A stretch of 64,000 nt of DNA from a virus. Taxonomy: Duplodnaviria > Caudoviricetes. The translations under genes and the position numbers were made by a program. Below, piece by piece: positions 2,303-62,308 of the stretch. The first letter of the stretch is position 1. Each line of letters opens with the position of its first letter. The stretch covers positions 1 to 64,000 of the IMG/VR virus record IMGVR_UViG_3300015207_000465; one strand, given 5' to 3'. The notes under the pieces are model-generated. The model saw only the letters and a program-made list of their open reading frames with translations, had not been told where the DNA came from and did no database searches.

Positions 2303-2767
2303 TCATTTACTTAGTAAATAATTAAGCAATTCAAGTTCTTCCGGGGTCAATCGCTCAAAACCAACATTCAAGATAGTATTTACCGAGTCAATGTCATTTT
2401 CTTTGTCCGGTCTGCCTATAGCCATATCCAGAAAGTGCATCATTAATTTTGCACTACCTTTCCTTGCGGATTGGAGTAATGCCTCTGCGACTACTATTAA
2501 CCATACCGGGGCTTGTTCTTGAGGCTGTTTTCCTTGCTCAATCAACGCCTCAAGTTCGGTGTATGATAGATTAATCAATATGGCTACTGATTTTCTAAAA
2601 TCCTCTTTGGTTATCGCATCGCCATATTTACGGAGTGTTTTTGCACCTATCAACGGTTTGCGTCCGTTGTTCTTTGGTTGATTCAGTGAGGTAAAGCGGG
2701 TGTTAACTCCCGCTTTATTTCCTCGCTGAAATCCTTTTGGGCGTTTGCTCGGGTATTTCATTGTCAT
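2303..2767 (-). CDS. Terminase small subunit-like protein (DUF5681-like N-terminus)
   Basis: GFQRGNKAG..RF..NQPKNNGRK N-terminus and helical C-terminus ending in a D..IGRP motif. Confidence 0.55.
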   Translation of the reverse strand: MTMKYPSKRPKGFQRGNKAGVNTRFTSLNQPKNNGRKPLIGAKTLRKYGDAITKEDFRKSVAILINLSYTELEALIEQGKQPQEQAPVWLIVVAEALLQSARKGSAKLMMHFLDMAIGRPDKENDIDSVNTILNVGFERLTPEELELLNYLLSK

Positions 2768-12215: not shown

Positions 12216-13580
12216 TCATTCATCTTCATTTTCCTGCCCCACATTTTGCCCCACGTCTGCCCCAGCATTATCAAAGGCACTCATTGCCCTTTTTGCCGTA
12301 TCATCGACGATTTCCAAATACGGCTTCATGGCACGATAGTCGCTATGACCAGTCCATTTCATTACAATGCTTGGTGGAATACCCAACATAATGGCGTTGC
12401 AGACAAATGTGCGACGCGCTGCATGTGTGGATAACAATTCCCATTTGGGGTGAGTTTCGTCGATGCGGTTCATCCCCTTGTAGATTGTTATAGTGACAGG
12501 CGCATCAATCTTGCATTTCTTTCCTATGATTTTGAGGTAGTCGTTCATCTTCTGATTTGAGATGACCGGCAAAACCTTGTCGTCAGGAAACACCACATGC
12601 TCATACTTTTTCAGAATAGCCTTGGAAAACTTATTCAATTCAATAGTCAACGTATCGCTCGTCTTTATCGTAGTAAAGGTAAACGATGTGCCGTTGAAAT
12701 TTGAATGTCGAAGATTGCGCACGTCGGAATACCTTAAAGACGTGAAGCAGCAAAAACAGAACACATCCCGGACTTGCGATAGGTAATTCAGCTTGCCGAA
12801 ATCGTAATTGTAAATGGTCATAAGTTCATCCCATGTCAGGAATATAACCGCCTTACGAGCCATCTTGAGCCTTACTTTCTGCAAAACAAATTTATTCATG
12901 CCCACGTAGCCCTTCTCCTGCGCCCAACGGATAAACGCCTTAATAAAACCTATATCTTTCTTTATCGTTTGATTGGAAAGACCTATGCGATTTTCTTTGT
13001 CGGGTATGGATGACAAATGCGCAATAAAATCAGTCATGCCGGTTTCTTCCAACTGCTCAAATGTCAGTGTTGGCGACATAGCATACAGGTGGCGGCGAAT
13101 GGTCTTATTTTTCTTTAATGCGCTTTCACTCCAATGACCACTCCTAACATTATCCTGAATATACTTGTCGAAGATTGGAAAAATAGACTCGTCTTTGATT
13201 TCAACCGGTGCTTCTTTTTCTTCCGGTGTAGTCAGACGGGTAAATTCTTCCATAAACTGCTCCTTTGTCGGGACACAATCCTTTTCTTCAAACGACAAGA
13301 ATATTCCGTTTATAAGGATTTCAAAATCATCAATATCACGGTTAATGGTCGCTGCCGGGGTCTTGTTCTTTCCGTGTACCGATTTGGCACGACATCTTTG
13401 CAATGATAGCTCCCAGTATTCCGGATTTACATTATGATTTACACTCAAGCGCACACGCTGACCCTGCCAAGTGACAACACACCTTAATCGACCCTCCGGC
13501 TGTTTGGCTTTCTTGTCGGATTTGGCGGTCTGCTTCCTGACCTCTACGATAAACGAGATGCTACGCTTGATGGTAATCAT
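12216..13580 (-). CDS. int: Prophage tyrosine integrase
   Basis: TSLRYSD, THAARRTF and TGHSDYRAMKPY motifs. Confidence 0.95.
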   Translation of the reverse strand: MITIKRSISFIVEVRKQTAKSDKKAKQPEGRLRCVVTWQGQRVRLSVNHNVNPEYWELSLQRCRAKSVHGKNKTPAATINRDIDDFEILINGIFLSFEEKDCVPTKEQFMEEFTRLTTPEEKEAPVEIKDESIFPIFDKYIQDNVRSGHWSESALKKNKTIRRHLYAMSPTLTFEQLEETGMTDFIAHLSSIPDKENRIGLSNQTIKKDIGFIKAFIRWAQEKGYVGMNKFVLQKVRLKMARKAVIFLTWDELMTIYNYDFGKLNYLSQVRDVFCFCCFTSLRYSDVRNLRHSNFNGTSFTFTTIKTSDTLTIELNKFSKAILKKYEHVVFPDDKVLPVISNQKMNDYLKIIGKKCKIDAPVTITIYKGMNRIDETHPKWELLSTHAARRTFVCNAIMLGIPPSIVMKWTGHSDYRAMKPYLEIVDDTAKRAMSAFDNAGADVGQNVGQENEDE

Positions 13581-17569: not shown

Positions 17570-17986
17570 ATGTTATTTGAAGCAAAATTAAGAGTCGAAA
17601 AGACCCTTGACTCCGGCGAACAGAAAGAGGTCAGGGAACACTACATCATGGATGCCGAACTATTCGCCGAGGCAGAAAAGATGATGTTTGAATTATATCC
17701 CAATCAGACCATCGACGTGTTTAGCGTCGCCCGCAGCGACATCAGGGAAATCATCAACGAAAAGGAAGAAGACAAGCCTTTCTTCAAGGCTACCGTCATT
17801 GACGTGTTTACGGATGATGAAACCGGCAAAGAAAAGGAAACCAAATACTACATGCTTGTATGCGCCGAGAACGTCGTAGAAGCTACCCTGCTTGTAAACG
17901 AATATCTCAAGCAAGGATACAATCTGCGCCTTGACGGAATAAAGCGTGTGAAAATTCTTGACTATATCCCGTATCAGCCGGCATAA
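17570..17986 (+). CDS. DUF4494-like protein
   Basis: FEAKLR.EK...G.QK.V.E.Y..DA..FAEAE; D.ETGKEK pattern. Confidence 0.75.
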   Translation: MLFEAKLRVEKTLDSGEQKEVREHYIMDAELFAEAEKMMFELYPNQTIDVFSVARSDIREIINEKEEDKPFFKATVIDVFTDDETGKEKETKYYMLVCAENVVEATLLVNEYLKQGYNLRLDGIKRVKILDYIPYQPA

Positions 17987-40309: not shown

Positions 40310-40382
40310 CGCGGGTTGGAGCAGTTGGAAGCTCGCCAGTTTAACTTGCTGGAGGTCGTGGGTTCGAGTCCTACACCCGCCA
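40310..40382 (+). tRNA. Initiator-type tRNA body with anticodon AAC (would read GUU)
   Basis: CGCGGGT/ACCCGCC acceptor with C1xC72 mismatch, A73, D stem GAGC/GCTC (A11:U24), stem CCAGT/GCTGG, loop TTAACTT, T arm GTGGG-TTCGAGT-CCTAC; CCA not encoded. Confidence 0.88.
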
Positions 40383-43068: not shown

Positions 43069-43695
43069 GTTAAGAGGCCTAAGTTTAAAAAAAGTTTCAA
43101 CGAAGAGTTGAATCGTAAGTTGTCGGATGGTGGAATAAAACATCATCCCGATGGTTTATATCCTGCTGGGGTGGGTGAATTCCATAAAGCAATTAAAATT
43201 GCTAAAAGAAATAATGGTAATGGGTGGATGGTAGAGAAAAAGGGCAGGGGAAGTTATTCCGGGCTACGCCTCTTTATGTCTAAAGATAAGAAGATGGGAT
43301 TTGCCTTAGATGGCGATAATATAGTGTCTGTCTTTAGCTGTAAGCCAAAAGGAAGTAATGCGATGGGTAAAATTATCCCATTTGCAGTAGCCATGGGTGG
43401 CAGAAGATTGGACTGTTTCGCAGGTGGTCTTCAAAATCTTTATGCCAAGTATGGTGCGCGTCCAACAGGAAAAACACATTTCGACGAGCGATATGCGCCT
43501 CCCGGGTGGGATGGAAAGTCTCATCATCCAATTGTAGCGATGAGATTGCCAAACTCCCTTGAAAAATTGATTAAGGCTTACAACCCAAGACAAAAAGTCA
43601 GCCTTAACGGGGTGCGGTATTATTCTTCGTATAATGACATGGAAAATTCAGCGAGAAAGCGTGGTGCAAGGAATAATATTAAACAAAGCTCTTAG
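43069..43695 (+). CDS. GNAT-like domain protein; proposed GTT start
   Basis: DNIVSVFS..AVAMGGRRLDCF...L..LY.KYG..P....FDERYAPPGWD; frame open from 43060; first ATG far inside; TTG 43108 is the alternative start. Confidence 0.65.
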   Translation, partial: VKRPKFKKSFNEELNRKLSDGGIKHHPDGLYPAGVGEFHKAIKIAKRNNGNGWMVEKKGRGSYSGLRLFMSKDKKMGFALDGDNIVSVFSCKPKGSNAMGKIIPFAVAMGGRRLDCFAGGLQNLYAKYGARPTGKTHFDERYAPPGWDGKSHHPIVAMRLPNSLEKLIKAYNPRQKVSLNGVRYYSSYNDMENSARKRGARNNIKQSS

Positions 43696-44500: not shown

Positions 44501-44701
44501 GTTAGACGCAGGAAAACAAGAGAACAAATAGAAGCCCAAGCATCGCGCCTCAGTGAAGCTAATTGGCGCAGGCGTAATGTGTGGGAAAGCGGCACCGCAT
44601 CCCGTAGGGCAAAAGAGTCACGCGACCGATTGATAGATAAAGCCGAGAAGCGTGCTTTAGTTCAAAACGGATTAAGAATGGCGACCGGGGGGGGCAAATA
44701 G
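44501..44701 (+). CDS. Small Arg-rich protein (66 aa, not in ORF track); proposed GTT start
   Basis: (V)RRRKTREQIEAQASRLSEANWRRRNVWESG...; in-frame TAA at 44477; no ATG/GTG/TTG until codon 27; A-rich leader. Confidence 0.6.
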   Translation, partial: VRRRKTREQIEAQASRLSEANWRRRNVWESGTASRRAKESRDRLIDKAEKRALVQNGLRMATGGGK

Positions 44702-44720: not shown

Positions 44721-44790
44721 TGCGTGTTAGAGAAGCGGTCATCTCGCCGTCATCAGACGGAAATCGCAAGTTCGACTCTTGCACACGCAG
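44721..44790 (+). ncRNA. tRNA-like RNA with 4-nt anticodon loop
   Basis: TGCGTGT/ACACGCA, GAGA/TCTC, CCGTC-ATCA-GACGG, GCAAG-TTCGACT-CTTGC. Confidence 0.75.
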
Positions 44791-44824
44791 CATAGAAAAA
44801 TAACGGAATTTCATTATCACGACA

Positions 44825-51264: not shown

Positions 51265-51502
51265 ATTGTTTTCGTTTTAGTTGATTTCAAATTCATCATC
51301 GTAAAGGTCGATGGTCGCGCCGCTGCTGAATTGGATTGTGAAGCGGTATCCGTTGCGTCCTACGATTGTTCCGCGATGGTATCCACGCCACGGCTTCTTT
51401 AACTCTACTTGTTTTCCGTATTCCGGGAAATCTATATCTTCTTCGTACATTATTATGGGTGTTGTGGGCGACCCGGCTTGACGAGCCGCCCGTTTTGACT
51501 TT

Positions 51503-52510: not shown

Positions 52511-52789
52511 ATGACGATACGACTAAAAGAAGTAATGAAAGAGAAAGGTGTTACAGGGCGCGAATTAGCGACTCGGCTTAATACGACACCTCAGTACATA
52601 AGCAACATTACAAGTGGGCGACAAAATCTGTCGCTTAACGGAATAGATGAAGTTGCAAAAGCATTGGGTGTTGAACCGTGGGAATTGCTTGTTTCTCGCG
52701 AGCAGCTCGCCAATTACAAATCCGATAGTCTTATGACGCAATGTCCCCATTGCGGAAAGCCAATAACAATCAAAACTACAATAGAATGA
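52511..52789 (+). CDS. XRE-family HTH regulator with zinc ribbon
   Basis: RLKEVMKEKG.T.RELA..ALGVEPWEL; CPHCG. Confidence 0.85.
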   Translation: MTIRLKEVMKEKGVTGRELATRLNTTPQYISNITSGRQNLSLNGIDEVAKALGVEPWELLVSREQLANYKSDSLMTQCPHCGKPITIKTTIE

Positions 52790-53508
52790 AACATTTACTT
52801 AAACCAGCAATCATCCTTGTTTTGGGAATGATTGTCTTATATCTCCAATCATGCGACCGACCTAATCAAGTTGATAATACGCTATTTGGGTTTCGTTTTG
52901 GGCAAACACAAATGGAAGTTGATAGCGTTGCGTCTAATAGAGGTTTCCGAAAACTTGCATGGGTCAATTCCACCGGTTATGAGGGACGACTTGATACGCT
53001 TGGTGTTAGATGGATGCAGATAGAAGCAAGGTTTGAAAAAGATTCTCTCTGTTCCATTGCACTACTCGCGCATAAGGATTCGGAAGATGATGGTCGTGTT
53101 TTCGAGAGTAAGATTAACGATGTGCTGGAAAACCATTTTCATGTATTCGGAAAGCGGTTAGAGCAAGAACCGTATGAAGAATATGGAGCATGGATTTTTG
53201 GCAATTACGTTGTTTCGTTTATCCCCAAAGGAGAATATTTTGCAGTTTTGCAAATATGCCCATATTCCGAAGATAATGCTAAAACGGCAAGGCTTGAATA
53301 CATCGACTATAAAATAGACGAGAACTTAAAGAAGCTCGCTAACGCTATGGCTGGTTATATTAAGGCAAGAGAAAGTGGTCAATCTACCATGAGGGAAGTT
53401 TATGTGGATGATGTACGCTCTGCAAATGGTTTTCTAAATAAACATTACGACCTTATGACCCCCAGACAAAAGGAACTCTTTGACAAACTAAGGAATATTA
53501 CTTATTGA
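52786..53508 (+). CDS. Putative lipoprotein
   Basis: MKHLLKPAIILVLGMIVLYLQSC signal peptide and lipobox; ATGA-coupled. Confidence 0.7.
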   Translation: MKHLLKPAIILVLGMIVLYLQSCDRPNQVDNTLFGFRFGQTQMEVDSVASNRGFRKLAWVNSTGYEGRLDTLGVRWMQIEARFEKDSLCSIALLAHKDSEDDGRVFESKINDVLENHFHVFGKRLEQEPYEEYGAWIFGNYVVSFIPKGEYFAVLQICPYSEDNAKTARLEYIDYKIDENLKKLANAMAGYIKARESGQSTMREVYVDDVRSANGFLNKHYDLMTPRQKELFDKLRNITY

Positions 53509-53729: not shown

Positions 53730-55013
53730 TCATTGTTGTTTGATTTCAGCAGTCACGCCGTTAGTGTCGGTCACGTCTGCCGGGTTAATCGTTTTTGCGG
53801 TATCGGGATTTTCAGCAGCCACCGACAATCCTAAATCGCAGAAGCCCTTGCAAGCTCCGCGATAGCCGTTGAAAAATTCAGTGGCGGTCATGCGTCGCTT
53901 GTTCGGCATCTGCAATTCAAGTACGGAAAGAAGATTGTCGCCACAGGCGATGTATAGCTTTCGGTCTTGCCAGAATAGCTCGCCGGGCGCATGGTGGCCA
54001 CGCGGTATGTCGGTCTTTTCCGTTCTGAAAATCTTGACGCTCATGGCCTGCTTTCCAAGCATGGCCAGTGAAGTCCAAGCTGATGGGATTGGAGTAAGTG
54101 CGCGTATGAAGTCATAGACGTAATCGGCGGGCTTGAGCCACGGAATGATGCAGTCCTTGCGATGTAGCTTTGGCGCGTAGCATGGCTGGATGAAGTCACA
54201 GATAAGCTCCGACTGAGGAATGGGGTTGCATGAATGGGCTATGCGCTGGATTGCATCGTCTATCATTTCCGCGCCGGCAATGCGTAGCTTGATGTGAACG
54301 TCTTCCGCGTTATCATCTTCATCAATGCCGATGGCAAGATTGTTTATGATGCCGCCGGTGTCGATTTTGTCTTCAAGCATGAACGTTGTCACGCCGGTCA
54401 TGGCATTACCATCCTTGATTGCGGATGCGATGGTGGAAGCACCGCGATACATGGGCAGCATAGATGAGTGGAGGTTGATTGTACCCCACGACGGAATGGT
54501 GTATAGCGCACGTGGCAGTATTCTGAACTCCACTACTACGCCGAGCGTCGCATGAAGATTGTGGATGTGCCGCAGAAATCTATTAGAGTCAAGTTTCCGT
54601 GGTTGAAAAACAAGGATGCCCATAGATTCGGCATAAACCTTGACCGCAGATGGCCGCAGTTTCTTGCCACGCCCGCACGGTTTATCTTCCATAGTTACGA
54701 CTGCCGCGACATCATATCCGTTTTCAACAAGCATTTTTAGCGTGGGAAGCGCAAACTGCCCATTGCCGAAGAATATGATGCGTATTCCCTTGCGTGATAC
54801 AGGCTTGTCAAAATCACGTTCCGGGTATGAAACAATATCAGTTTCGTCAACAATTACATAACCGCCGGATTTCTTCAATCGCAGAAAGTAAGAGCCATCA
54901 TCTTTTGGGTATAAGATTTTGGCTTCCGTAAAAATACCGCCCCCATCATTACCGTGCAGGAGTCTGCTTGGAATTTGGACTGTCTGCCCGACGCGATAAA
55001 GAGGTGTTTTCAT
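53730..55013 (-). CDS. fmt: Phage-encoded methionyl-tRNA formyltransferase homolog with extra N-terminal domain
   Basis: IIFFG..FA, VVT..DKP.GRG.KL, INLHSSMLPMYRGA, TGVTTF..IDTG, YAPKL, QMPNKRRM; ATG 55013 coupled to the XRE stop. Confidence 0.92.
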   Translation of the reverse strand: MKTPLYRVGQTVQIPSRLLHGNDGGGIFTEAKILYPKDDGSYFLRLKKSGGYVIVDETDIVSYPERDFDKPVSRKGIRIIFFGNGQFALPTLKMLVENGYDVAAVVTMEDKPCGRGKKLRPSAVKVYAESMGILVFQPRKLDSNRFLRHIHNLHATLGVVVEFRILPRALYTIPSWGTINLHSSMLPMYRGASTIASAIKDGNAMTGVTTFMLEDKIDTGGIINNLAIGIDEDDNAEDVHIKLRIAGAEMIDDAIQRIAHSCNPIPQSELICDFIQPCYAPKLHRKDCIIPWLKPADYVYDFIRALTPIPSAWTSLAMLGKQAMSVKIFRTEKTDIPRGHHAPGELFWQDRKLYIACGDNLLSVLELQMPNKRRMTATEFFNGYRGACKGFCDLGLSVAAENPDTAKTINPADVTDTNGVTAEIKQQ

Positions 55014-61219: not shown

Positions 61220-62308
61220 GTTAATCAGTCATTTTATTTCGATTACGCAAAGCGTTTCTTCCCCGGCCTTGTGCTGGCTATCGTAGAACGCCTCAACGAG
61301 AAGCGTGCCAATTCCGCTCTCACCTACCTTTACAAAGAAAAACTTCGCCCGCAGTTTTCGCTTGATGGCCGCTGGGCTTCCATCCTTGCGGAATACACCC
61401 GCGTAGCCGCCGACGTTGTGGCACTTGACTCCGAGCTTCCGCTCAAGAGCCGTGACACACTGGAGGTTGCTTCCGGCACAATTCCCAAAATCGGTATGAA
61501 GCTCTACCTGACCGAAAAGCAGATGAAAGACGTTGACTCGATGATTGCGCAGGGTGTTCCCCTCCAGACCATCATCGACAACATCTTCGCTGATACCCCC
61601 CGTTGCATCGAGGGCATCTGGGAGCGCATCGAAGACATCTTCCTTTCGGAGCTTTCGTCGGGTGTCGGCGTTTCCGAGCGCAACAACGGCACAGGTGTGC
61701 GCATCAACATGAATTTCTATGACGACAACCAGTTCGCTGTTTCCAAACTTTGGAGCAACACCGACGCAACTCCGCTTGACGACATCCAGAAACTTGTTGA
61801 CAAGTCCATTACCGACGCAAACACCATCATCGACGCATACGCTGACGACACCGCCCTCGGTCTTCTCTACAAGAACAAGCAGGTGCGTTCACAGTTCGCG
61901 TTCAATCAGGGCATCGCCATGACCGGTTCGACCACCGTGCCGGTGCTTGACTTTGCGAAGCTCCAGCAGATTTTCCTCACCAAGTGGAACATCAATCTGC
62001 ACCGCGTCGCCCGCCGTGTCAAGACCGAGCTTAACGGCGAAAAGAAAAACCATACCCCGTGGAAGACCGGAACAATTTCCTTTGTCTGCGATGAAGAGCT
62101 TGGCTCACTCGTATGGACTAACGTTGCCGAGGCTTCGCGCCCCGTTGAAGGCGTTGTCTATCAGACTGCCGACCAGTACATCCTCGCAAAGAAATATTCC
62201 AAGACCGACCCCCTCCGCGAGTTTACCGCTTCCGAGGCTATGGTTGTGCCTGTGTTGAACAACGTTGACCGCATCTACACGCTCGACACTCAGACAGTTC
62301 AGGAATGA
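61220..62308 (+). CDS. Major capsid protein; proposed GTT start (362 aa)
   Basis: Size and position; VAADVVALDSELPLKSRD..G.IPKIG; frame open from 61193 with no ATG near the 5' end; first GTG at 61271. Confidence 0.8.
   Translation, partial: VNQSFYFDYAKRFFPGLVLAIVERLNEKRANSALTYLYKEKLRPQFSLDGRWASILAEYTRVAADVVALDSELPLKSRDTLEVASGTIPKIGMKLYLTEKQMKDVDSMIAQGVPLQTIIDNIFADTPRCIEGIWERIEDIFLSELSSGVGVSERNNGTGVRINMNFYDDNQFAVSKLWSNTDATPLDDIQKLVDKSITDANTIIDAYADDTALGLLYKNKQVRSQFAFNQGIAMTGSTTVPVLDFAKLQQIFLTKWNINLHRVARRVKTELNGEKKNHTPWKTGTISFVCDEELGSLVWTNVAEASRPVEGVVYQTADQYILAKKYSKTDPLREFTASEAMVVPVLNNVDRIYTLDTQTVQE

What the first reader, a model, noticed from the sequence alone, without database searches (positions are those of the whole stretch)
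53730..55013. Phage Fmt with intact catalytic residues, altered substrate-pocket motifs and an extra N-terminal domain
Catalytic N-x-H (INLH) and D (IDTG) are kept, but usual motifs differ: GTPxFA is GNGQFA, VVA(Y/F) is VVEF, and RGAAPI is RGASTI. From my recollection of the E. coli Fmt-tRNA structure these segments border the methionine side-chain pocket, suggesting changed amino-acid specificity (inference). A ~65-aa beta-rich N-terminal extension is unexplained and could bind RNA. The gene is coupled to an XRE regulator.
Basis: partly seen in the sequence, partly recalled or inferred. Interest (0 to 1): 0.75.

Follow-up and report, generated by a model that had tools for sequence, protein, structure and literature searches.

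The report
Phage formylase paired with valine-initiator tRNA
A prophage of mouse-gut Bacteroidales carries its own, visibly altered copy of the enzyme that formylates the starter tRNA. This copy occurs only in phages that also carry a valine-type starter tRNA and begin their capsid gene at GUU or GUA instead of AUG, so it is probably the formylating part of a phage-private way of starting proteins.

Summary
Window 53730-55013 (-) encodes a 427-aa Fmt homologue. It scores above the TIGR00460 cut-off, and its model matches solved Fmt at TM 0.86-0.91.

Kept: catalytic N/H/D, the SLLP motif, the tRNA-reading loop 1 (G41-R42) and the C-terminal OB domain.

It belongs to a monophyletic, phage-only clade of about 55 sequences (36-88% identity) with these marks:
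- Substitutions at positions invariant in 83 cellular Fmt: T11N, P12G, A89E/D, A121S, P122T, T182A.
- A Tudor/SH3-like N-terminal barrel found nowhere else.
- In the AAC lineages, an ATGA overlap with an XRE gene (13 of 13 loci).

Every clade member whose contig reaches far enough lies in a phage with an initiator-like tRNA bearing a valine anticodon. The capsid gene starts at the matching codon: AAC with GTT, UAC with GTA. None of 41 sister phages with ATG-start capsids (17 at least 90% complete) has any Fmt.

- At least 16 Fmt-less sisters carry a GAC valine-type initiator tRNA, so the enzyme is not obligatory.
- Two of the three motifs are folate-site elements in the homologue FDH, so the "methionine pocket" claim is unproven.
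- The N-domain is acidic to neutral, so it is not an obvious RNA binder.

Best reading: a dedicated formylase for phage Val-tRNAi. This scan had already noted the tRNA and GUU-start system on this same genome.

The parts
53730..55013 (-). Phage Fmt gene (427 aa, ATG start), a member of the 'long' phage Fmt clade
54834..55013 (-). N-terminal Tudor/SH3-like beta-barrel (residues 1-60). The ordered linker, residues 61-77, lies at 54783-54833.
   Evidence: AF2 strands at 11-15, 28-37, 41-46 and 52-56. VIA-align Z 6-7 to Tudor, chromo, PWWP and KOW barrels. Atlas TM about 0.65. The profile is found only at the N-termini of Fmt-like proteins.
54261..54782 (-). Catalytic Formyl_trans_N domain (residues 78-251). 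It holds N180/H182/D218, loop 1 (G114-R115) and the clade-specific N84, G85, E162, S193 and T194.
53859..54170 (-). Formyl_trans_C (OB-fold, tRNA-binding) domain, residues 282-385. It follows the linker motif A280-P281-K282 (54168-54176), which is conserved in both Fmt groups.
   Evidence: net charge +5, like host Fmt at +4.
53730..53858 (-). Clade-specific C-terminal addition: the conserved 'RGACKGFC' strand, then a disordered variable tail and the stop codon
55010..55279 (-). XRE/HTH_3 regulator (89 aa, C-terminal CPxCG motif), translationally coupled to fmt by an ATGA overlap
   Evidence: The overlap is conserved in 13 of 13 AAC-lineage loci.
40310..40382 (+). Initiator-like tRNA with anticodon AAC (C1xC72, G2:C71, C3:G70, A11:U24, A73), the presumed substrate once charged with valine
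   Evidence: Its acceptor stem is identical in type to the host tRNAfMet.
61220..62308 (+). Major capsid gene starting at GTT, in the GA|GTT|A context, directly after an in-frame stop in relatives
43069..43695 (+). Candidate GTT-start late gene (208 aa, GAGTTA context)
   Evidence: Context and ORF only; not tested by homology here.
44501..44701 (+). Candidate GTT-start small basic ORF (66 aa) upstream of terS
   Evidence: Analogous GTC-start basic ORFs occur in the GAC-type sister phages.

Best explanation
The gene encodes a phage-specific paralogue of methionyl-tRNA formyltransferase. It is made from an early, AUG-initiated XRE-fmt operon.

Its likely task is to formylate the phage's own initiator-like tRNA. 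That tRNA carries anticodon AAC and is most likely charged with valine by the host ValRS. The product, fVal-tRNAi, would then start the late genes that open with GUU, including the major capsid gene.

Shown:
- the family and the fold;
- the retained catalytic and tRNA-contact residues;
- the clade-specific active-site substitutions;
- the presence/absence pattern across phages;
- the match between start codon and anticodon.

Inferred:
- that the substrate is Val-tRNAi;
- that the substitutions T11N, P12G, A89E/D, A121S and P122T adapt the enzyme to valine or otherwise raise its rate on this substrate.

Unknown: the role of the N-terminal barrel.

My odds: about 0.8 that the enzyme serves the phage initiator tRNA, and about 0.5 that it is truly re-specialised for valine.
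For: 1. It is a true Fmt-type enzyme.
- TIGR00460 scores 217.8 bits against a cut-off of 201.5.
- The best solved relatives are all Fmt, at E 1e-45 and TM 0.86-0.91.
- G41, R42, N108, H110, D146, the SLLP motif and K206 are conserved in both groups. The residue aligned with N301 is kept in this protein and in most clade members.
- The C-terminal domain is as basic as in host Fmt.

2. It is a distinct clade.
- It is monophyletic (SH-aLRT 99, stem 0.57) and branches among Bacteroidota Fmt.
- dN/dS is 0.12-0.17.
- It differs from 83 cellular Fmt at positions 11, 12, 89, 121, 122 and 182.

3. It is a second copy. Lysogens keep a canonical host fmt as well.

4. Co-occurrence with the tRNA.
- Six of the ten IMG/VR records found with the Fmt carry the AAC tRNA, and G009/G010 carry the UAC tRNA. 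The other two, G001 and G003, are fragments (14% and 66% complete) without it.
- The four GTDB genomes that hold the Fmt each have exactly one AAC tRNA on the same contig.
- Three lineages whose Fmt is only 40-45% identical also have the AAC tRNA.
- The capsid start codon matches the anticodon: GTT with AAC, GTA with UAC.

5. Absence elsewhere. None of 41 sister records with ATG-start capsids has an Fmt, 17 of them at least 90% complete, while the positive controls were found.

6. The tRNA body is not what differs. The host tRNAfMet has the same acceptor features as the phage tRNA (C1xC72 or C1xU72, G2:C71, C3:G70). What differs for a formylase is the attached amino acid.

7. Laboratory precedent. 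In E. coli an engineered i-tRNA-AAC starts proteins at GUU with Val or fVal. Formylation is a bottleneck there: FMT is about 60-fold less efficient on Val, and FMT overexpression gives a 3-fold gain (bioRxiv 10.64898/2025.12.21.695813).

8. Nothing else is supplied. The phage has no deformylase and no class I aaRS, so the tRNA and Fmt are the translation parts it brings.
Against: - No biochemical data exist for any clade member.
- All Fmt-bearing phages form one syntenic lineage. The co-occurrence is therefore probably one gain followed by retention, not repeated independent association.
- At least 16 sister phages carry a valine-type (GAC) initiator-like tRNA, and probably GTC-start small ORFs, without any phage Fmt. 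Host Fmt evidently suffices for such a tRNA.
- Positions 89 and 121-122 align with the loop after beta-4 and the R-G-A loop, which line the folate site in FDH, and FDH natively has RGAS. The substitutions may therefore not touch the amino-acid pocket.
- The new residues (N, G, E/D, S, T) are polar. They are not what one would naively choose to fit a small hydrophobic valine side chain.
- One clade member scores below the TIGR00460 cut-off (195.6 bits).
Confidence: 0.6

Rival explanations
1. Plain dosage booster. The phage Fmt has ordinary specificity and simply raises total formylation capacity. During late infection the heavy demand for initiator tRNA, phage and host alike, would then be met. 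On this reading the clade-specific substitutions are drift, or tuning unrelated to the amino acid.
For: - FMT overexpression alone improves GUU initiation in E. coli.
- GAC-type sister phages manage without a phage Fmt.
- All tRNA-recognition residues are unchanged, and the phage tRNA acceptor stem equals the host's.
Against: - Six positions that are 99-100% invariant in 83 cellular Fmt are replaced by other residues. These replacements are themselves 88-100% conserved over a clade that has diverged to 36-40% identity, under purifying selection. That pattern indicates altered function rather than drift.
- A clade-specific N-terminal domain has been added and kept.
Confidence: 0.2
2. Altered one-carbon donor or cofactor handling. 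The substitutions change how the folate is bound, not which amino acid is accepted. Possible changes are a different folate form, a different polyglutamate length, or resistance to a shortage or an inhibitor. This would keep formylation running in the infected or lysogenic cell.
For: - Positions 89 and 121-122 align with the loop after beta-4 and the R-G-A loop, which contact the pteridine or pABA and support the catalytic Asp in FDH.
- The RGAS motif is native to FDH.
Against: - The SLLP motif and the catalytic triad are unchanged.
- The T11N and P12G changes lie in the beta1-alpha1 loop. In GAR transformylase this loop binds the acceptor substrate (my recollection of established structures, not tested here).
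- This reading does not explain the strict link with non-AUG capsid starts.
Confidence: 0.1
3. Lysogenic-conversion gene, or an enzyme with a non-tRNA acceptor. The XRE-fmt operon would be a prophage-expressed module that benefits or manipulates the host. Alternatively, the enzyme formylates some other amine, such as a sugar nucleotide or a metabolite.
For: - The operon points away from the replication genes, as repressor operons often do.
- Contigs of one mouse-gut metatranscriptome cover fmt and its neighbours. This is weak evidence, because DNA carry-over is not excluded.
Against: - Loop 1 with R42 and the basic OB-fold C-terminal domain are tRNA-specific features. Both are conserved.
- ArnA and sugar formyltransferase models score far below their cut-offs.
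- The gene's presence tracks the start codon of the capsid gene.
Confidence: 0.07

Closest known systems
Bacterial methionyl-tRNA formyltransferase (Fmt, EC 2.1.2.9; E. coli 1FMT/2FMT, B. anthracis 4IQF)
   Same: - Two-domain architecture, fold at TM 0.86-0.91, 32-35% identity.
- Catalytic N108/H110/D146 and the SLLP motif.
- Loop 1 with G41-R42, the A-P-K linker, and a basic OB domain.
   Different: - T11N, P12G, A89E/D, A121S, P122T and T182A at positions otherwise invariant.
- About 75 extra N-terminal residues forming a Tudor/SH3-like barrel.
- An extra C-terminal strand and tail.
- Phage-borne, as a second copy beside the host fmt.
- Coupled to an XRE gene.
Engineered orthogonal initiation in E. 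coli: i-tRNA-AAC with ValRS and FMT overexpression (bioRxiv 10.64898/2025.12.21.695813; 10.1101/2021.05.25.445580)
   Same: - An initiator tRNA body with anticodon AAC.
- A GUU start codon, with Val or fVal at the N-terminus.
- Formylation as a limiting step, relieved by extra formyltransferase.
   Different: - The phage system is natural and conserved across a phage lineage.
- It supplies a sequence-diverged Fmt rather than more of the host enzyme.
- It supplies no ValRS.
N-terminal hydrolase domain of 10-formyl-THF dehydrogenase (FDH/ALDH1L1)
   Same: The same formyltransferase fold. FDH natively has RGAS where the phage enzyme reads RGAST.
   Different: FDH lacks loop 1 and the tRNA-binding context, and it hydrolyses or transfers formyl to a phosphopantetheine arm. 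It scores only E 1e-17 against the phage protein, compared with 1e-45 for Fmt.
Sister phages with GAC-anticodon initiator-like tRNA and no Fmt (IMG/VR records G027, G030, G045-G050, G052, G053, G055, G056, G058, G063-G065)
   Same: The same phage family (capsid 60-64% identical). They carry an initiator-like tRNA with a valine anticodon and a UU-NAC-UU loop, and probably have non-AUG (GTC) starts on small basic ORFs.
   Different: No Fmt gene, the capsid starts at ATG, and the tRNA has the classical C1xA72.

Membership tests
Methionyl-tRNA formyltransferase (TIGR00460 / EC 2.1.2.9) | Formyl_trans_N plus Formyl_trans_C two-domain architecture | tested here: met
   PF00551 at 78-251 (E 3e-29) and PF02911 at 282-385 (E 3e-19). 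Foldseek TM 0.86-0.91 to six solved Fmt.
Methionyl-tRNA formyltransferase (TIGR00460 / EC 2.1.2.9) | Score above the curated equivalog cut-off | tested here: met
   217.8 bits against 201.5 for the window protein. Across the clade it is borderline: 205.8 for the Muribaculaceae prophage and 195.6, below the cut-off, for the Lepagella prophage.
Methionyl-tRNA formyltransferase (TIGR00460 / EC 2.1.2.9) | Catalytic Asn108, His110 and Asp146, and the SLLP folate motif | tested here: met
   N180, H182, D218 and L185-L186-P187 are conserved in at least 90% of both groups.
Methionyl-tRNA formyltransferase (TIGR00460 / EC 2.1.2.9) | Loop 1 insertion with G41-R42, which reads the acceptor stem, and a basic C-terminal OB domain | tested here: met
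   G114-R115 are invariant or nearly so, and the loop length is kept. The loop's importance is described in PMC8843374 and PMC13234167. The C-domain net charge is +5.
Methionyl-tRNA formyltransferase (TIGR00460 / EC 2.1.2.9) | Family-wide conserved active-site residues G-T-P-x-F-A, A89 and R-G-A-A-P | tested here: not met
   N84, G85, E162, S193 and T194 replace T11, P12, A89, A121 and P122. These are 99-100% conserved in 83 cellular Fmt.
Methionyl-tRNA formyltransferase (TIGR00460 / EC 2.1.2.9) | Formylates Met-tRNAfMet | not testable with these tools
   Needs an enzyme assay. The context predicts Val-tRNAi(AAC) as the main substrate.
Tudor / SH3-like small beta-barrel (N-terminal domain) | Five-strand barrel superposable on Tudor, chromo or KOW domains | tested here: inconclusive
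   Z 6-7.2, 50-57 residues aligned, rmsd 1.8-3 A to many unrelated barrels. Atlas TM about 0.65. No Pfam hit. This is shared topology only.
Sugar-nucleotide / ArnA-type or PurN-type formyltransferases | Score above the family cut-off | tested here: not met
   ArnA 118 bits against 777, PurN 49.7 against 150, dTDP-sugar formyltransferase 23 against 238.

The most novel reading that the evidence does not exclude
The phage runs a private, orthogonal initiation channel. A valine-charged initiator tRNA (AAC or UAC) is formylated by a formyltransferase that has been re-specialised from Met to Val, and it starts late genes, including the capsid gene, at GUU or GUA. The formylase would be the first natural Fmt with changed amino-acid specificity. 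Its N-terminal barrel would be a new accessory module, perhaps tethering it to a partner in initiation.
Probability: 0.45. Interest if true: 0.9.

Novelty: new variant of a known kind. Interest (0 to 1): 0.8.

Why it matters
Formylation of the initiator tRNA is treated as a fixed, methionine-only housekeeping step in bacteria. Here a virus carries a diverged formylase whose presence tracks a change of start codon and initiator anticodon.

If the enzyme prefers valine, three things would follow:
- It would be the first natural change of Fmt amino-acid specificity.
- It would explain how a phage can put its most abundant protein behind a start codon that the host initiator tRNA reads only poorly.
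- It would hand synthetic biologists a ready-made part for orthogonal translation initiation, where Fmt on Val-tRNAi is a measured bottleneck.

The question is directly testable. Two lysogens are cultured isolates: Lepagella muris NM04_E33 and Muribaculaceae Isolate-036.

Tried and rejected
1. Checking the methionine-pocket claim from the literature. The two E. coli Fmt structure papers (PMC452207, PMC1171029), the ArnA transformylase paper (PMC2583347) and the human MTFMT mutant paper (by DOI) are not held.

2. N-domain homology.
- No Pfam hit.
- No similarity to the SH3-looking 57-aa ORF at 51277-51450.
- The feature search of the protein atlas scored only 0.75.
- Profile hits to long repeat proteins cover only part of the domain, in several stretches, and I regard them as spurious.

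3. Five GTDB loci whose tblastn match seemed to reach upstream of the Fmt core (L065, L087, L113, L117, L122) turned out to be ordinary host fmt genes (GTPEFA, VVAF, RGAAP) with read-through into the neighbouring ORF.

4. Six IMG/VR contigs hold the AAC tRNA but no Fmt. These are not counter-examples. The two long ones end directly after the portal gene, before the fmt region, and the others are 7-13 kb fragments.

5. Expression. Only one listed run is a true RNA library. Its contigs cover fmt, the second XRE gene and the 255-aa ORF, but not the coupled XRE gene. Contigs cannot show level, strand or absence, and DNA carry-over is not excluded. I do not count this as evidence either way.

6. 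Records behind Logan and ENA loci cannot be searched whole. I reached the tRNA by a second look-up on a flanking gene instead.

7. I sent no complex-prediction job, because I do not claim that XRE and Fmt bind.

8. Literature searches found no description of a natural phage valine-initiator tRNA or of a specialised phage Fmt.
Full report
WHAT IS THERE

The window is the first 64 kb of a 103-kb IMG/VR provirus record. A tmRNA gene with the tag GENNYALAA lies near the far end of that record.

The ORF at 53730-55013 (-) encodes 427 aa. Its ATG overlaps the stop of an 89-aa HTH_3/XRE gene as ATGA.
- Pfam finds Formyl_trans_N (78-251) and Formyl_trans_C (282-385).
- The NCBIfam equivalog TIGR00460 (fmt) scores 217.8 bits against a cut-off of 201.5.
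- ArnA, PurN and sugar formyltransferase models score far below their cut-offs.
- The best solved relatives are six bacterial Fmt (E 1e-45 to 1e-38). They align over residues 76-385.
- An AlphaFold model built on 33 clade members has mean pLDDT 89.7. It superposes on those Fmt structures at TM 0.86-0.91.

A DISTINCT, PHAGE-ONLY CLADE

A search of 5.8 billion proteins separates two groups.
- About 47 'long' proteins of 390-434 aa, 40-88% identical to the query, cover the N-terminal extension.
- Ordinary Bacteroidota Fmt of 315-330 aa are 40-45% identical and cover only the core.

A profile search with the N-domain added eight more divergent long members.

On a maximum-likelihood tree the long group is one branch (SH-aLRT 99, stem 0.57 changes per site) among Bacteroidota Fmt. 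Its internal branches are much longer than those of the host enzymes.

The gene is under purifying selection. dN/dS is 0.12-0.17 over the whole gene and 0.06-0.08 in the core.

Cultured or assembled lysogens (Muribaculaceae Isolate-036, Lepagella muris) hold a canonical host fmt (270-274 bits) as well as the prophage copy (206 and 196 bits).

WHAT IS KEPT AND WHAT IS CHANGED

I compared 49 long members with 83 cellular Fmt, using E. coli numbering.

Conserved in both groups:
- G41 and R42 of loop 1. R42 reads C3:G70, and the loop is essential (PMC13234167 and PMC8843374).
- N108, H110 and D146.
- The SLLP motif.
- R118-G119-A120.
- The A-P-K206 linker.

The residue aligned with N301 is kept in the window protein and in most clade members.

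Positions at which each group is at least 85% conserved for a different residue:
- T11 to N.
- P12 to G.
- A89 to E (D in the rest).
- A121 to S.
- P122 to T (P kept in a few).
- T182 to A.
- Position 9 to F.

The more divergent members keep GNG, the acidic residue at position 89 and RG(A/S)S(T/P).

In the model these residues sit at the C-terminal ends of strands beta-1 and beta-4 and in the loop after beta-5. That is around the catalytic centre (inference from the fold topology).

WHETHER THEY LINE THE METHIONINE POCKET

I could not verify this. The Fmt structure papers are not held and I have no coordinates.

The nearest evidence available points partly elsewhere. In the homologous FDH hydrolase domain, the loop after beta-4 (residues 86-90) binds the pteridine. 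Arg114 and Ala116 of the R-G-A loop contact the catalytic Asp and, through water, the pABA moiety. FDH itself reads RGAS. So positions 89 and 121-122 may belong to the folate side.

The beta1-alpha1 loop (positions 11-12) is the acceptor-binding loop in GAR transformylase. That rests on my recollection of established structures and was not tested here.

THE N-TERMINAL DOMAIN

- Residues 1-60 form a four-strand small barrel, followed by an ordered linker.
- Structural searches give Tudor, chromo, PWWP, KOW and SH3-like barrels at Z 6-7 and TM about 0.65. This is a shared topology without functional meaning.
- A profile of the domain, run against 1.84 billion representatives, finds full-length matches only at the N-termini of 373-426-aa Fmt-like proteins, plus two fragments.
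- Its net charge is -2 at the median (range -5 to +4). That does not favour a general RNA-binding role.

Its function remains open.

THE CONTEXT THAT GIVES THE ENZYME A LIKELY JOB

The phage carries an initiator-like tRNA at 40310-40382 with anticodon AAC. It has an unpaired C1xC72, G2:C71, C3:G70, A11:U24 and A73. The host's own tRNAfMet has the same acceptor features, C1xC72 or C1xU72. A formylase would therefore see the same tRNA end but a different amino acid.

The capsid gene has no canonical start. In five relatives the conserved N-terminus begins at GTT, directly after an in-frame stop or 'GA'.

In 77 IMG/VR capsid homologues the same aligned first codon is:
- ATG in 61;
- GTT in 13;
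- GTA in 2;
- one aligns from residue 4 and has an ATG two codons upstream.

The two GTA cases belong to the lineage whose initiator-like tRNA has anticodon UAC. Start codon and anticodon therefore covary.

CO-OCCURRENCE

From Fmt to tRNA:
- Six of the ten IMG/VR records found with the Fmt have the AAC tRNA.
- The distant pair G009/G010 has the UAC tRNA. Its Fmt is 36% identical but still has the barrel, GNG and VVEF.
- The two remaining records, G001 and G003, are fragments without it.
- The four GTDB species genomes with a long Fmt each have exactly one AAC tRNA on the same contig.
- Three lineages with Fmt only 40-45% identical (P0043, P0048, P0041) have it too.

From tRNA to Fmt: six extra contigs with the tRNA lack Fmt, but all end before the fmt region.

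Negative set: none of 41 sister records of at least 30 kb with ATG-start capsids has any Fmt homologue. Seventeen of these are at least 90% complete. The three positive controls were found.

All Fmt-bearing phages share synteny (DnaN | XRE-fmt | ... portal-terL-terS). The pattern is therefore best read as one gain followed by retention down to 36% identity, not as many independent events.

AN IMPORTANT QUALIFICATION

At least 16 of the Fmt-less sister phages carry an initiator-like tRNA with anticodon GAC and the classical C1xA72. One carries a CAU initiator-like tRNA.

The three GAC-type genomes I examined have small basic ORFs that begin at GTC directly after a stop. These are conserved between genomes.

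A valine-type initiator tRNA can evidently work with the host Fmt. The phage Fmt marks the sub-lineage in which the non-AUG start has spread to five ORFs with the GAGTTA start context, one of them the capsid gene.

This fits the laboratory finding that formylation of Val-tRNAi is slow, about 60-fold below Met, and limits GUU initiation, with a 3-fold gain from extra FMT. It fits the dosage reading as well as the specialisation reading.

REGULATION

- The ATGA overlap with the XRE gene is conserved in 13 of 13 AAC-lineage loci, including those with Fmt at 40-45% identity. It is absent in the UAC lineage.
- Both genes start at ATG and lie in the early or regulatory region beside Rha and DnaN. 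The enzyme can therefore be made before the GUU-start late genes need it (inference).
- The phage has no deformylase and no class I aminoacyl-tRNA synthetase.

VERDICT

Well supported:
- the link to odd-anticodon initiator tRNAs;
- the claim that this is a functionally diverged Fmt.

Still inference:
- the specific claim of a reshaped methionine pocket;
- the RNA-binding N-domain.

I found no description of such an enzyme, or of a natural valine initiator tRNA, in the literature held. Earlier notes of this scan on the same genome had already proposed the tRNA and GUU-start system. I re-tested the capsid start and the tRNA features myself.

Noticed in passing
L161 and L162 (IMG/VR 3300035507_000038 and _000185); tRNA in L010 at 12647-12721 (-): In one sub-lineage the capsid gene starts at GTA (GA|GTA|AAT) and the initiator-like tRNA has anticodon UAC. 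Start codon and anticodon therefore covary between lineages: GTT with AAC, GTA with UAC.
   Followed up: partly
L237-L252 (IMG/VR records G027, G030, G045-G050, G052, G053, G055, G056, G058, G063-G065): Sister phages with ATG-start capsids and no Fmt carry an initiator-like tRNA with anticodon GAC and C1xA72. Small basic ORFs begin at GTC directly after a stop (G048:7362, G030:42819(-), G027:27912) and are conserved between genomes.
   Followed up: partly
L236 (record G060, 17777-17848): A related phage has an initiator-like tRNA with the normal CAU anticodon. This may be the ancestral state from which the valine-anticodon versions arose.
   Followed up: no
window 44721-44791 (+): ARAGORN calls a tRNA-like gene with a six-base anticodon loop ('tc', no amino acid assigned). 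It lies between the 66-codon GTT-start basic ORF and terS.
   Followed up: no
window 54786-55013 (-) compared with 53730-54785: Against its closest relatives (87-92% protein identity overall) the N-domain region is only about 60% identical, and its synonymous divergence is saturated (dS about 3, against 0.3-0.6 in the core). The 5' part of the gene therefore has a different, probably recombinant, history.
   Followed up: partly
window 52511-52789 (+) and 52741-53508 (+): A second XRE protein carries the same C-terminal CPxCG motif as the one coupled to fmt. It is followed by a 255-aa ORF with a lipoprotein-like N-terminus and no family match. Among the five related records compared, that ORF was found only in the closest one, G002 (98% identical).
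   Followed up: no
L277, L278 (host genomes G019, G018): The host's own initiator tRNAfMet in Lepagella and Muribaculaceae has C1xC72 or C1xU72 rather than the textbook C1xA72. The phage tRNA copies this.
   Followed up: partly
G000 99516-99911 (-), outside the window: A tmRNA gene (tag GENNYALAA) lies near the end of the provirus record. This suggests integration at ssrA.
   Followed up: no
window 2624-2722 (+): ARAGORN calls a 99-nt 'tRNA-Ala (tgc)'. It looks doubtful because of its length and its overlap with an ORF on the other strand.
   Followed up: no
L140, L142 (loci of distant Fmt clade members): Next to DnaN these phages carry a Sequestin/Tad2-like gene (PF21825, PF11195), a candidate anti-defence protein.
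   Followed up: no
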